Positions 54,001 through 57,000 of a stretch of 64,000 bases of DNA are shown here, in pieces (position 1 is the stretch's first letter; each line of letters starts with the position of its first letter). Position numbers: made by a program. The stretch is taken from UHGV virus genome UHGV-1366603. One strand, written 5' to 3'. Source of the stretch: a virus.

Positions 54001-57000
54001 ATGCGTACAGCCGTTTGAGCACGTCCAGCTACAACTACCTCCGCAGTCTAACCGGTTTGGCGTCCAACCCGAAAATGTATCGGCTGCATTATGTGCTTTC
54101 GACGCAACTTGCGGATCAACACGTGGGCCAGTTGCCATTTGGTTCTCTACGTTGGTGATTCGGTCACGTACGTTTTTAACACTGATCGCCATCACGTATC
54201 CTTAAAATAAAAAAGAATGGAGGACTACGTCCATAAACATAGTTCCTCCTGTAATTAAATTATTTTGTACCCGCTTCCGCCTGTACGTCATCACGAGACG
54301 TCAGGTTAGCGTTAACGTGTACTGGGGCCTGAACCACACCACCGTATCTCTTGTGGAGATAACCGCTGTGCGGGTTATCTGCCGCGATGTGGTTTTGTAG
54401 GTTCTGGTTCGCTTGACTGATTGCGTTCGTGTTATTGTTAACTTGCTGTTTAAGCGCATCCAGGTTCTGTTGTACCTGATCGATTTTCTGATCGGTTTCT
54501 TGACCCTGTTGCTCTAACGCGGCAACACGCTGAATAACCTGATTCAGTTTTGTGTTTAAATCGTTGATGCTCTTTTGCAGTTGTAACACTAACGAGTTCA
54601 GGTTCGCTAACGCTAATGCCATTTTCTGGTAGTTTTGAGCAACCACGTTAAGTTGGTCGTTCCACGCTTCCAGAGAGTTGACAACAGCGTCAATACGCTT
54701 ACCTAAAGCTTCGTCCGCTTTCTTCAGTGCATTGATTTCCGTAATCGTTGCGTCGATAGCAGACTGGACGTCACGGATAAGCGCACGGATTTCAGTTTCC
54801 GTTAACCCGTTAACCTGATGGATATCAAGATGGTGAACGTTACCGGTTGAGTTAATGTGTGCATTTAAAGCGTCTAAGAAGTCATTTTTCAGGCTTTCTA
54901 AAATCGCTTTAATGTTCTCTAACTGTACTGCGTCACCAGAACTAATAGCATCTTTAATACCCGCCAATACGGTAATGATATATTCAAAACCGTAGATGTC
55001 ACCCACGTCTTTATACGTCGGTGCAGACGGGAATGTATCCGGTACGTTACGCAAGTCTTTAAACGCAATCGTACGGTTATCGAGGTTTAATTCAGCAATC
55101 GCCTGTTCGATAGCCACGATGTTCGCAGACTGTGGGCCACCAACGACCTGCGCAGATACTGTAATATCTGTTGGAATCGCTGTGTTAGTGACCACCACCG
55201 CCATAACAATCTCGCGGTTTTTAGTCAGCTTTTCATAAGTCGGGTGTGCAAAAATCAACTCATAATCGGTACCACGTTCGTAGGTTGCATCCGGTCGGTT
55301 AGCAACGCGTAAACGGAACGTGTCCGCAAAGAACGGGCCGTCAGGAAAAGCAAAAGCACGGTTTACTTTACCTGTACCTAACGTAATCTGACGCTCCACA
55401 GCGTTAGACGTTAGCGAGCCCGTTAAATCTAAAGGATATTGATAAACAATGGAGGCCATGGCCACTCTCCTTTATTCGAGACGTCCTTGTCCCGAGTCAT
55501 TAAGATGTAAACATAAGATTGAACTGGAGTTTGTCGATATCGCGAGTTTCTGCCGGATTCACGGCATCGTACGCGGTCGCTACGTAAACGGTTAGCGTGC
55601 CGTTAGCGTAAGACGATTTCACCGGTGGGTTAGTTCCGGTCTGACCATCTCGCACAATGAGTGTAGGTTCACTTGGGAGATTATCAAACTGACCCTTGAC
55701 CGCTTTATACACCAAACCAGATTGCGCAGACAGTTCACTGTCCGTAAAGACAAAGAACGGTGTGTCGATATCTGCCTGTTTAATCGTGGTACCGGTCTCG
55801 ACGTCAATCAACTGTACCGCCCCAAACTTCGTACGATAACTTTCATACTCGTTCTTCGGAATAACGAACGTGACGTGAACGCGAACCTCCTCGGCAGGTT
55901 TAAACCCAGCGTGCTCTTTTTCCAGGTACTGGTTGGCGGTTAACGTTACCGTTTGTTCAGTCATCGTACCACCGGCCTGGTTTATTGCATACCGAGCTTC
56001 AACAATACCGGTTGGTGCAGCAAGTCGCAGTTTCAAAGCACGATTCGCCGTTCCTGGATTACCTGGCACCTGAACGCGCAAACTCAATGCTAGGTAAGCA
56101 TACGTTCCGGTAGTCGGTTTCGTATACGCACCAATCCATTTCATGTTCGCAGACGCTGCCTGCGTGTTTTCAGAAGCAGTGGCTGTCGCAATGTTGGCGG
56201 CTACCGCTTTCTGCCAGAATTGGTCAGCGCAGTTCTCATACGCTACCCTGGCCACGCTCTTATAACCCGAGTAAGTTTCCTGAATTGGTAACTTAGGACG
56301 CGTCGTAATACCAGACAGTGAACCCCATTTTTGACCGTCAACATACCCTTCACCTTTCGTCGCAGACGCCGTAGGTGCTTTAACGGGTTTGTTAACCAGC
56401 GTTAATAGAGGACCGGTCTTTCTGTCAAACGCTGCTGCTACATCGTGTTGGTCGATAATTGCCGCGTGGTCTTCCAGCTCTTTCACACGACCCAAACGTT
56501 TTACTTTGTCGATACTGATATCGGTAATACGGCTGGAATCGGTGGTTACCGTCCCGACGAACAGTCTTGTTGAAGTATCAGCTAACTGCTCCAAACCGAT
56601 ACGGTATTGCGCAGTAGAACCTGACACCTCAGCGTGCACGTAGAACGTTTGGTTAGCGTGATTGGACGGGAACTCGCTGCTTAAATCCACAGACCACGTT
56701 GGAAGTGTGTAACTGCTGCTACCGAAGTCTAACTTGACTTCTTCTGTCAAATACAGAATCCAGCCTTCTGCTGTCTCCACACCGGCAATAATAACAGCCT
56801 GACCTCCGGTTGAGAACGTCGTGTCGTTAACGAACTCTGCGGCTGTATACGCGTTACCTGAACAGAAAACACGGTCAGCTTTAGAGTAAATCAACGCCAT
56901 CTTGTCCCAATTACCGGCACCCATATAGCACCCAGATTCTGGGTTATGTGCAGGGGCCATCTGTCGTAACTGTGACTTACCAGGAACGCGAGACCAACCT

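What the first reader, a model, noticed from the sequence alone, without database searches (positions are those of the whole stretch)
54196..54260. Terminator separates the radical-SAM operon from the upstream fibre genes
A stem-loop plus T-tract on the minus strand immediately follows the 399-aa fibre-like gene and precedes peptide A, and a bidirectional terminator closes the operon at 48546-48582. The operon is therefore probably an autonomous transcription unit with its own promoter hidden in the 54196-54260 gap, which could give it independent timing or regulation, consistent with acquisition as a cassette.
Basis: seen in the sequence. Interest (0 to 1): 0.45.

Follow-up and report, generated by a model that had tools for sequence, protein, structure and literature searches.

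The report
Terminator hairpin hiding a phage promoter
The short gap between a jumbo phage's tail-fibre gene and its radical-SAM peptide operon holds a hairpin conserved across six phage genera; it looks like a terminator with a phiKZ-type start signal in its loop, so the operon probably has its own promoter but is an old, fixed part of the fibre module, not a recently acquired cassette.

Summary
The stem-loop and T-tract are real (minus strand: hairpin 54249-54219, T-tract 54217-54204), and so is the two-way hairpin at 48548-48574. The window is an uncultured relative of Salmonella jumbo phage SPN3US. That group is thought to transcribe with its own RNA polymerases, so a sigma-70 promoter is not expected, and none is found in the gap.

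The same gap exists in six genera. The stems differ but keep pairing: 94% of cells are paired and 8 of 12 pairs changed on both sides. Two short boxes barely change: TTAC (only its AC is invariant) and, 15 nt later, TATG in the hairpin loop. TTAC-N15-T(A/G)TG also sits upstream of four other genes here (5 observed against 0.13 expected) and at the matching SPN3US sites. It resembles phiKZ promoters, where transcription starts at the G of TATG.

Best reading (confidence about 0.5): the hairpin terminates or attenuates fibre transcripts, and operon transcripts start at G54232 inside the loop, escaping that terminator. A second conserved hairpin with TATG in its loop lies at 25043-25086.

The cassette idea is not supported: gene order is fixed in six genera, codon usage matches the flanks, and no flanking repeats exist. 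There are no RNA data, so both the promoter and the terminator are inferred.

The parts
54260..55465 (-). Upstream fibre-like virion structural gene (401 aa from GTG, 399 aa from ATG). Its TAA stop is at 54262-54260.
   Evidence: ORF list. phrog_2163 virion structural protein, E 1.6e-102. 76% amino-acid identity to the SPN3US protein annotated 'virion structural protein'.
54251..54254 (-). TTAC box, at -22 to -19 relative to the predicted start. It follows an A/T-rich run.
   Evidence: The C lies 19 nt before the G of TATG in five genera and 20 nt before it in Wellingtonvirus. The AC is invariant in the 11-sequence alignment of four genera and is kept in Derbicusvirus and the window-clade contigs. 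The same box and spacing occur upstream of four other window genes.
54219..54249 (-). Conserved hairpin: 5' arm 54249-54236 (A54243 bulged), loop 54235-54232, 3' arm 54231-54219.
   Evidence: Folds. Covariation over 14 distinct sequences: 94% paired, 8 of 12 pairs changed on both sides. A T-A to C-G swap next to the loop appears in close relatives.
54232..54235 (-). TATG in the loop. G54232 is the predicted transcription start (+1).
   Evidence: TATG is invariant in every relative examined although the stems differ. In phiKZ the late-promoter core is T(-3)ATG(+1) (PMC4666361, PMC7598289, PMC12809450).
54204..54217 (-). T-tract TTCTTTTTTATTTT, one base after the stem: the U-tract of an intrinsic terminator.
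   Evidence: Sequence. T-rich in the window clade, Seoulvirus, Erskinevirus and Machinavirus; weak in Wellingtonvirus; absent in Derbicusvirus.
54190..54203 (-). Ribosome-binding site AAGGA (54203-54199) and ATG of peptide A (54192-54190). The predicted 5' untranslated region is about 40 nt.
   Evidence: AAGG plus the start codon is invariant in the alignment.
48590..54192 (-). The operon. Three Cys-rich peptides: A 53797-54192, B 53388-53786, C 53179-53385. Then a 77-aa ORF 52923-53156, a 299-aa protein 52023-52922, radical SAM 51078-52001, radical SAM peptide-maturase-like 49772-51094, a 190-aa protein 49237-49809, and a DUF4376 protein 48590-49261.
   Evidence: ORFs. Pfam, PHROG and NCBIfam hits. 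Internal gaps are 22 nt or less, or the genes overlap, so it reads as one unit of about 5.7 kb.
48548..48574 (.). Two-way terminator hairpin (11 pairs) shared by the operon and the converging + strand gene 47980-48510.
   Evidence: Terminator scan. Conserved as a strong hairpin plus T-run after the last operon gene in SPN3US, pEa_SNUABM_29, Wellingtonvirus and Derbicusvirus.
7734..7756 (+). Same motif class, TTAC-N15-TGTG, 24 nt before gene 7780. It directly follows a terminator's T-tract.
14427..14449 (+). TTAC-N15-TGTG upstream of gene 14490 (thymidylate kinase homologue).
   Evidence: The SPN3US orthologue gp166 (64% identity) has the same boxes with an unrelated spacer.
16356..16378 (+). 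TTAC-N15-TGTG upstream of gene 16404.
   Evidence: The SPN3US homologue gp162 (29% identity over 310 aa, E 1e-45) has the same boxes.
19795..19817 (+). TTAC-N15-TATG upstream of gene 19853.
   Evidence: The SPN3US orthologue gp156 (67% identity) has the same boxes.
25043..25086 (+). Second hairpin with TATG at the 3' end of its loop (TATG 25058-25061), followed by a T-tract, upstream of virion gene 25103.
   Evidence: The orthologous site before SPN3US gp144, and in Asesino, pEa_SNUABM_29 and STsAS, keeps the loop CGATC-N-TATG. Between those phages and the window, the inner stem differs but still pairs.

Best explanation
The gap is a compact terminator-promoter junction built for the phage's own RNA polymerases.

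**Step 1 (inferred from anatomy and conservation).** Transcripts coming from the fibre-like genes form the hairpin 54249-54219. They then stop, or are attenuated, at the U-tract 54217-54204.

**Step 2 (inferred by analogy with phiKZ promoters).** The phage's non-virion polymerase starts new transcripts at G54232, the G of the invariant TATG in the loop. The TTAC box 19 nt upstream helps direct it.

**Step 3 (follows from the geometry).** An RNA that starts in the loop lacks the 5' arm. It cannot form the terminator hairpin and reads on into peptide A. It then continues about 5.7 kb to the two-way terminator at 48548-48574.

On this reading the operon is insulated from fibre-gene transcription and has its own promoter. 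That promoter belongs to the class also found before non-structural genes such as thymidylate kinase, so it may fire earlier than the late fibre genes. The operon is nonetheless an ancient, fixed part of the fibre module.
For: **The hairpin is selected**
- It occupies the same gap in six genera with different stems that still pair.
- Formal count: 94% of cells paired against 79.6% in shuffles (0 of 500). Eight of 12 pairs changed on both sides (2 of 500). Shifted-partner controls gave 36-72%.
- A covariance model of the element finds it once per genome and only here, apart from one marginal E = 0.6 hit in the window.

**Terminator features**
- One base after the stem comes TTCTTTTTTATTTT.
- In the related phages 201phi2-1 and phiKZ, mapped 3' ends show that hairpin terminators are used (PMC11512511, PMC10914365).

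**Promoter features**
- TATG is invariant and the TTAC box is nearly so (only its AC is invariant). The spacing is fixed at 19 nt (20 in Wellingtonvirus), while the stem begins at varying distances after the box.
- TTAC-N15-T(A/G)TG occurs 5 times in 3,071 nt of gene-upstream spacers, against 0.13 expected (0 of 5,000 shuffles). Every copy points at the downstream gene, 24-41 nt before its start codon.
- An unbiased count of all two-word motifs in 50 upstream regions of the window and SPN3US ranks (TTAC, 15, TATG) as the top non-terminator motif. It is in 7 regions, and the best of any motif in the null was 5.
- Three homologous gene pairs between the window and SPN3US keep both boxes, and even the A/G choice, while the spacers are unrelated.
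- phiKZ late promoters are T(-3)ATG(+1). phiKZ middle promoters carry AAanTTACc centred near -24, and some also have TATG (PMC4666361, PMC7598289).

**The nested layout recurs**
- A second conserved hairpin has TATG at the loop's 3' end and a T-tract, 41 nt before a virion gene.
Against: - No RNA 5' or 3' ends are available for any SPN3US-like phage. The start site, the termination and the timing are all inferred.
- The TTAC box sits about 2 nt closer to the start than the published phiKZ middle-promoter position.
- In Erskinevirus the box reads AAAC and in Parshik ATAC. Only AC is invariant.
- The U-tract is weak in Wellingtonvirus and missing in Derbicusvirus, although the hairpin and TATG persist there. 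Termination may not be the element's core conserved function.
- The second TATG-in-loop site has no TTAC box.
- The covariation alignment was fitted to the structure by the model, which favours pairing.
Confidence: 0.5

Rival explanations
1. Terminator or attenuator only. The hairpin and U-tract partly stop fibre-gene transcripts, and the operon is expressed solely by read-through. The conserved TTAC and TATG serve some other constraint.
For: The hairpin and T-tract anatomy is good. Such hairpins lie between many co-oriented genes here, including 60684-60777 inside the fibre module. TATG alone is a weak signal (PMC4666361).
Against: A terminator needs neither a fixed loop sequence nor an upstream box at fixed spacing. 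Typical terminators in this genome use TTCG-type tetraloops. The U-tract is lost in Derbicusvirus while TATG, the hairpin and the AC box persist. The motif recurs before other genes, well above chance.
Confidence: 0.2
2. An RNA-level element. The hairpin acts in the transcript as a processing site, a stability element, or the binding site of a regulatory protein that reads the loop U-A-U-G-G.
For: The loop sequence is invariant on a covarying stem, which is typical of protein-recognised RNA hairpins. A second hairpin has a similar loop end.
Against: This does not explain the conserved AC/TTAC box outside the hairpin at constant distance from TATG. Nor does it explain the same two-box motif before other genes with no hairpin. 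No Rfam family matches.
Confidence: 0.15
3. A structure-dependent promoter. The hairpin itself, extruded from DNA or easing strand opening, is needed to present the non-template TATG to the polymerase. Termination is secondary.
For: TATG lies in the loop at two independent conserved loci. The phiKZ polymerase binds TATG on the opened non-template strand, and what else gives specificity is unknown (PMC12809450). The hairpin persists where the U-tract is lost.
Against: The well-studied phiKZ promoter P119L has no significant hairpin (z 0.12). The other TTAC-N15-TRTG sites here have no consistent hairpin around the start. DNA-level stability is modest at -7.5 kcal/mol.
Confidence: 0.1
4. An upstream mini-ORF. 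The loop ATG, preceded in the window by AGGAGG, starts a short leader peptide (MFMDVVLHSFLF) that regulates translation of peptide A.
For: In the window AGGAGGAACTATG looks like a ribosome-binding site plus start codon, and a 12-codon frame ends at the peptide A ribosome-binding site.
Against: The purine-rich stretch is the hairpin's 5' arm and is absent in SPN3US and Wellingtonvirus. The first ATG is not conserved, and the encoded peptides differ completely between genera.
Confidence: 0.03
5. The hairpin marks the edge of a recently acquired mobile cassette.
For: The operon is bracketed by two hairpins. phiKZ itself is not known to carry it (my recollection, not tested here).
Against: Position and orientation are identical in six genera whose fibre proteins have diverged to 43-46% identity. 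Composition and codon usage match the flanks. No flanking repeats exist. Every operon gene with a family hit belongs to a phage protein family.
Confidence: 0.02

Closest known systems
Intrinsic terminators of nucleus-forming jumbo phages (phiKZ, 201phi2-1), mapped by ONT-cappable-seq
   Same: A stem-loop followed by a U-tract just after a stop codon. Such elements are dense in these genomes: 132 mapped termination sites in 201phi2-1, of which 52 were classed as intrinsic at -6.9 to -19.3 kcal/mol. Two-way terminators lie between converging genes (PMC11512511, PMC10914365).
   Different: This hairpin has a bulge, an A/T-rich inner stem and a fixed TATG loop, not the TTCG-type tetraloop usual in this genome. 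The U-tract is not kept in all genera. No 3' ends have been measured.
phiKZ non-virion RNA polymerase promoters: late T(-3)ATG(+1), middle AAanTTACc near -24
   Same: An invariant TATG. An A/T-rich ...TTAC box about 20 nt upstream. Some phiKZ middle promoters carry both boxes (PMC4666361, PMC7598289). The motif recurs before genes.
   Different: The TTAC box is at -22 to -19, about 2 nt closer than described for phiKZ. An A/G alternative (TGTG) occurs. No start site has been mapped in this phage group. Here the start lies in a hairpin loop, whereas phiKZ P119L has no hairpin.
The usual terminator-then-promoter junction in this same genome (7692-7779, 14373-14489, 16318-16403, 19755-19852)
   Same: The same parts: hairpin, T-tract, TTAC, 15-nt spacer, T(A/G)TG, then a 24-41 nt untranslated region.
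   Different: The order is permuted. Normally the hairpin and T-tract come first and the T-tract runs into TTAC. In the gap, TTAC comes first and the hairpin fills the spacer and spans the start site.
Phage N4 virion RNA polymerase hairpin promoters (from my own knowledge, not checked in the literature here)
   Same: A phage polymerase promoter in which a small DNA hairpin with a conserved loop is part of the signal.
   Different: N4 uses a single-subunit polymerase and short 5-7 bp stems with 3-nt loops upstream of the start. Nothing here shows that the hairpin is needed for initiation.
CXXX-repeat peptide / radical SAM maturase systems (NCBIfam TIGR04114 and TIGR04115) and PapB-type ranthipeptide maturases. 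These concern the operon the element controls.
   Same: Peptide B reaches the TIGR04114 cutoff (20.7 bits against 20). The 440-aa enzyme's best matches are TIGR04115 (E 1.4e-33) and PapB (E 2.2e-33).
   Different: The enzyme scores are far below the curated cutoffs (117 against 350 bits). The operon sits inside a phage fibre module and ends with a DUF4376 protein. Its chemistry and role are unknown.

Membership tests
Intrinsic (factor-independent) terminator | Stable G+C-containing stem-loop just downstream of a stop codon, on the coding strand | tested here: met
   13 pairs with one bulge, 6 of them G-C, -17.7 kcal/mol, starting 10 nt after the TAA. Covariation supports it.
Intrinsic (factor-independent) terminator | U-rich tract directly after the stem | tested here: met
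   TTCTTTTTTATTTT follows one base after the stem in the window. Across genera the tract is variable: weak in Wellingtonvirus and absent in Derbicusvirus.
Intrinsic (factor-independent) terminator | Transcript 3' ends map to the U-tract | not testable with these tools
   No RNA data were found for SPN3US-like phages.
phiKZ-type non-virion polymerase promoter | TATG at -3 to +1 | tested here: met
   TATG at 54235-54232, invariant in all six genera.
phiKZ-type non-virion polymerase promoter | Middle-class box AAanTTACc centred near -24 | tested here: inconclusive
   AATTAC ends at -19, so the box centre is near -22, not -24. It reads AAAC in Erskinevirus and TAAC in Derbicusvirus.
phiKZ-type non-virion polymerase promoter | Motif recurs upstream of genes, in the right orientation, more often than chance | tested here: met
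   5 observed against 0.13 expected in the window. It is the top non-terminator two-word motif. It is conserved at three homologous SPN3US sites.
phiKZ-type non-virion polymerase promoter | Phage encodes the multisubunit virion and non-virion polymerases | not tested
   No polymerase gene was looked for in the window. This is inferred from close kinship with SPN3US, which has them (PMC5105663, PMC7598289).
phiKZ-type non-virion polymerase promoter | Primary 5' end at the G of TATG | not testable with these tools
   Needs 5'-end mapping.
Bacterial sigma-70 promoter | -35 and -10 hexamers with 16-18 nt spacing in the gap | tested here: not met
   No site in 54193-54259. The 15 sites found in 46000-58000 match the 15.4 expected by chance.
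Recently acquired gene cassette or island | Composition or codon usage differs from the flanks | tested here: not met
   GC 0.448 against 0.451, GC3 0.455 against 0.446, RSCU r 0.90.
Recently acquired gene cassette or island | Patchy presence among relatives, or a variable site of insertion | tested here: not met
   Same site and orientation in six genera.
Recently acquired gene cassette or island | Flanking direct repeats or a mobility gene | tested here: not met
   The only repeats are internal, between the paralogous peptide genes. No integrase or transposase family was hit.

The most novel reading that the evidence does not exclude
In SPN3US-like jumbo phages, placing the TATG start site in the loop of a terminator hairpin is a selected promoter design in its own right. 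The hairpin context would supply part of the specificity that the four-base TATG lacks, either by easing strand opening or by presenting the non-template TATG. It would also make the terminator one-way: it stops incoming transcripts but is invisible to those born inside it. This would give a concrete handle on the open question of how phiKZ-type polymerases choose their late promoters.
Probability: 0.12. Interest if true: 0.7.

Novelty: new variant of a known kind. Interest (0 to 1): 0.4.

Why it matters
- **Experimental targets.** SPN3US is a genetic model for nucleus-forming jumbo phages, yet I found no mapped promoters or terminators for its group. This work gives a specific candidate promoter class (TTAC-N15-T(A/G)TG) and exact predicted start sites to test.
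- **A compact regulatory layout.** If transcription really starts in the loop, the same 31 nt would stop upstream transcripts while letting its own transcripts through. That would be a neat insulator and possibly a useful synthetic-biology part.
- **Timing of the operon.** The Cys-rich peptide and radical-SAM operon could then be made on a different schedule from the late fibre genes it sits among. That bears on what these unstudied modified peptides do.
- **A corrected inference.** A terminator at a gene boundary in these genomes is routine punctuation, not evidence of a foreign cassette.

Tried and rejected
- **Sigma-70 promoter in the gap.** None found, and hits across the region are at chance level.
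- **Rfam.** The only hit in 47000-62000 is a sub-threshold, spurious snoRNA match at 48543-48631.
- **RNAalifold on the plain MAFFT alignment.** It gave no structure, because bulges put the 3' arms out of register. This was solved with a covariance-model alignment.
- **Raw count of TTAC-N15-TRTG over the whole window.** Not enriched: 8 observed against 5.8 expected. The signal appears only when coding and upstream regions are separated.
- **Hairpin as a general requirement of phiKZ-type promoters.** The published phiKZ P119L sequence (PMC12809450) folds no better than shuffles (z 0.12). Rejected as a general rule.
- **Experimental precedent for start sites inside terminators.** The 201phi2-1 and phiKZ papers report termination sites 'immediately downstream' of start sites. 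Their coordinate tables are not held, so this could not be checked.
- **Transcriptome data for SPN3US.** None found.
- **Cassette hallmarks.** Composition, codon usage, flanking repeats and patchy distribution were all negative.
- **Mini-ORF in the loop.** Not conserved.
- **The Ceyssens 2014 phiKZ transcription paper.** Not available in the library.
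Full report
**What is in the sequence**

Read on the minus strand, the 67-nt gap between the fibre-like gene and peptide A runs as follows:

TAA(54262-54260) TTTAA-TTAC(54254-54251) A GGAGGA-A-CTATGTT(54249-54236) TATG(54235-54232) GACGTAG-TCCTCC(54231-54219) A TTCTTTTTTATTTT(54217-54204) AAGGA(54203-54199) TACGTG ATG(54192).

The hairpin has 13 pairs and one bulged A. Its folding energy is -17.7 kcal/mol as RNA. As single-stranded DNA it is -7.5 kcal/mol with z = -3.1. The consensus scan did not report it, probably because of the bulge. It did find the 11-pair two-way hairpin at 48548-48574.

**What genome this is**

The region matches Salmonella phage SPN3US and its relatives at about 72% nucleotide identity. 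No closer cultured phage exists in the collection. Closer uncultured relatives are in IMG/VR, with fibre proteins 93-99% identical.

SPN3US belongs to the phiKZ-related jumbo phages. These carry two multisubunit RNA polymerases of their own, and in phiKZ transcription is independent of the host enzyme (PMC5105663, PMC7598289). The 1727-aa neighbour (55500-60683) corresponds by size and position to SPN3US gp168, a baseplate or fibre protein homologous to phiKZ ORF145 (PMC5105663). A host-type promoter is therefore not expected, and none is found in the gap.

**The operon is not a recent cassette**

The gene order is: large virion proteins, the ~400-aa virion protein, three Cys-rich peptides, a ~300-aa protein, two radical SAM enzymes, and two small proteins, the last carrying DUF4376 in the window. 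This order is the same in:
- Seoulvirus
- Erskinevirus
- Machinavirus
- Wellingtonvirus
- Derbicusvirus, whose fibre protein is only 43-46% identical

The window's own clade has the same fibre-gene/peptide A junction, but only 3.6 kb per contig was fetched.

Composition gives no foreign signal. The operon's enzymes have GC 0.448 and GC3 0.455, against 0.451 and 0.446 for the rest of the window. Codon-usage correlation is 0.90, similar to other gene sets. No repeats flank the operon. Every operon gene except the 77-aa ORF belongs to a phage protein family.

Terminator-like hairpins lie in roughly half of the 27 intergenic gaps of 35 nt or more. One is a conserved double hairpin at 60684-60777 inside the fibre module. 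A terminator here is ordinary punctuation.

**The hairpin is under selection**

I lined up the gap from 17 phages of four genera, six IMG/VR contigs and two Derbicusvirus genomes. All fold into a hairpin at the same place: -17.6 to -26.5 kcal/mol in the four genera, and weaker, interrupted stems in Derbicusvirus. The stems differ:
- window: GGAGGAACTATGTT / GACGTAGTCCTCC
- Erskinevirus and Machinavirus: GAGGACCTG / CAGtGTCCTC
- Wellingtonvirus: ACGGGCCTCG / CGAGTGCCCGT
- Derbicusvirus: GGGTG..ACTC / GAGT..CACCC

Among close relatives, the pair next to the loop changes from T-A to C-G. Two contigs carry a different 3' arm that still pairs.

A covariance model built from six sequences finds the element once per genome, at this site only, apart from one marginal E = 0.6 hit. 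On the resulting alignment of 14 distinct sequences:
- 94% of cells are paired, against 79.6% in shuffles (0 of 500 shuffles reached this)
- 8 of 12 pairs changed on both sides (2 of 500)
- shifted-partner controls gave 36-72%

One caveat applies: the alignment was fitted to the structure, which favours pairing.

**Two short boxes are conserved as sequence**

In the gap alignment the invariant columns outside the ribosome-binding site and start codon are mainly the AC of TTAC and TATGG in the loop. The distance from the C of TTAC to the G of TATG is 19 nt in five genera and 20 nt in Wellingtonvirus. This holds even though the stem starts at different distances after the box.

The same two-box motif, TTAC-N15-T(A/G)TG, lies upstream of four other window genes, at 7734, 14427, 16356 and 19795. 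Each copy points at the gene, 24-41 nt before its start codon. The statistics are:
- The whole-window count is not enriched (8 against 5.8).
- Five of the eight hits fall in the 5% of sequence that is gene-upstream spacer, against 0.13 expected (0 of 5,000 shuffles).
- An unbiased count of every pair of 4-mers at every spacing, over 50 upstream regions of the window and SPN3US, ranks (TTAC, 15, TATG) highest among motifs unrelated to terminators. It occurs in 7 regions, and the best of any motif in 100 shuffles was 5.

Three homologous gene pairs between the window and SPN3US keep both boxes, and even the choice of TATG or TGTG, while the 15-nt spacers are unrelated. The pairs are thymidylate kinase, the gp162 homologue and the gp156 homologue.

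This matches what is known for phiKZ. Late promoters are T(-3)ATG(+1), with all four bases required. Middle promoters carry AAanTTACc centred near -24, and some have TATG as well (PMC4666361, PMC7598289, PMC12809450). Here the box sits about 2 nt closer to the start.

**How the pieces fit**

At the four other sites the order is: hairpin, T-tract running into TTAC, spacer, T(A/G)TG. In the gap the order is permuted. TTAC comes first, the hairpin fills the spacer, TATG is the loop, and the T-tract follows.

If transcription starts at G54232, the new RNA begins with the 3' arm only and cannot form the terminator. Incoming fibre transcripts contain both arms and can be stopped. That is my best explanation, with confidence about 0.5. 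The steps about termination and initiation are inferred. The escape from termination follows from the geometry.

The genes served by this motif elsewhere are non-structural or unannotated (thymidylate kinase, an acetyltransferase, a DNA-binding protein). The operon may therefore be switched on with middle genes, before the late fibre genes.

**A second example**

Upstream of virion gene 25103 lies CCTACCGCCC-GATTCTATG-GGCGGTAGG followed by TGTTTTATTTTTTTTT (25043-25086). The orthologous site before SPN3US gp144 (45% identity) is GCTACCACA-CGATCATATG-TGTGGTAGC plus a T-run. The site is nearly the same in Asesino, pEa_SNUABM_29 and STsAS.

Again TATG ends the loop, the inner stem differs but pairs, and the start codon is 36-41 nt downstream. 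This site has no TTAC box, like a phiKZ late promoter. Most other terminators in these genomes have TTCG-type tetraloops. TATG loops therefore look like a distinct subclass.

**Cautions**

- In Derbicusvirus the hairpin, TATG and AC box persist but the T-tract is gone. In Wellingtonvirus it is weak. Termination may be the less conserved function.
- The idea that the hairpin itself is needed for initiation is weakened by phiKZ P119L, which has no significant hairpin.
- An RNA-level role for the loop cannot be excluded.
- The mini-ORF in the window's hairpin is not conserved.
- No transcript-end data exist for this phage group. Coordinate tables for the related phages could not be read.

**What the operon is**

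- The three peptides belong to phrog_6085.
- Peptide B reaches the cutoff of the CXXX-repeat radical-SAM target family TIGR04114.
- The 440-aa enzyme's best matches are the CXXX-repeat maturase TIGR04115 and PapB-type ranthipeptide maturases, far below their cutoffs.
- The last gene carries DUF4376 and weakly resembles tail-fibre families.
- A tail assembly chaperone lies nearby at 45467-46141.

The operon is embedded in tail and fibre functions on both sides.

**Verdict**

The promoter is of the phage's own type and is interleaved with the hairpin. This is a new variant of known elements and of moderate interest, mainly because it gives exact, testable start-site predictions in a genetic model phage.

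Noticed in passing
L001 12167-13196 (SPN3US NC_027402.1 about 143191-144220); also L005, L008, L010: The Cys-rich peptide genes are mis-annotated in public records. SPN3US peptides A (L001 12804-13196) and C (12167-12373) are not annotated. ACQ60_gp100 (12385-12720) is an out-of-frame ORF lying over peptide B (12389-12793). Several Erwinia phage records annotate opposite-strand ORFs there instead.
   Followed up: partly
window 48590-54192: The operon looks like a phage version of the CXXX-repeat peptide plus radical SAM maturase systems (TIGR04114 at cutoff; TIGR04115 and PapB as best but sub-cutoff hits). It sits between fibre genes and a tail assembly chaperone and ends in a DUF4376 protein. 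It is conserved in six jumbo-phage genera. I found no dedicated study of it in the literature searches.
   Followed up: partly
window 52923-53156 (-): A 77-aa ORF between peptide C and the 299-aa gene has no Pfam or PHROG hit. It has no counterpart in SPN3US or pEa_SNUABM_29, where that spacer is short.
   Followed up: no
window 25043-25086 (+); L017 about 17765-17810: A second conserved terminator-like hairpin has TATG at the 3' end of its loop. It lies upstream of a virion structural gene (the SPN3US gp144 orthologue). Between the SPN3US-like phages and the window, the stem differs but the loop motif CGATC-N-TATG is kept.
   Followed up: yes
window 15179-15192, 36308-36321, 40363-40376 (+): The A/T-rich motif CAGATA-N-ATATTAC recurs in spacers. 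It also occurs in SPN3US, sometimes just upstream of a TTAC-N15-TATG site (before gp141, gp165 and gp167). It looks like the early, virion-polymerase promoter class described for jumbo phages.
   Followed up: no
window and SPN3US intergenic hairpins (one search list): Most terminator-like hairpins in these genomes have a TTCG (UUCG) tetraloop on a G+C-rich stem of 7-14 pairs, followed by a T-run.
   Followed up: partly
window 60684-60777 (-): Two tandem hairpins separate the two large virion genes; the second is at 60716-60740 and is followed by TCCATTTTATTT. The double hairpin is conserved in Seoulvirus and Wellingtonvirus with different stems.
   Followed up: partly
window 29120-33643 (+): A 1507-aa tail-fibre protein whose C-terminal end matches long-tail-fibre distal-subunit families. 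The syntenic SPN3US region holds a run of paralogous ~300-aa virion proteins instead, so the receptor-binding gear probably differs.
   Followed up: no
window 13476-13763 and 25667-26093 (+): Two long stretches (288 and 427 nt) contain no ORF of 60 aa or more but have coding-like composition and no terminator. They may hold short, frameshifted or mis-started genes.
   Followed up: no
window 44769-48590 compared with L011, L027 and L028: In Wellingtonvirus and Derbicusvirus, the genes after the operon (endolysin, tail assembly chaperone) run in the same direction as it. In the window and Seoulvirus they converge on it. An inversion breakpoint therefore lies at the operon's 3' terminator.
   Followed up: no
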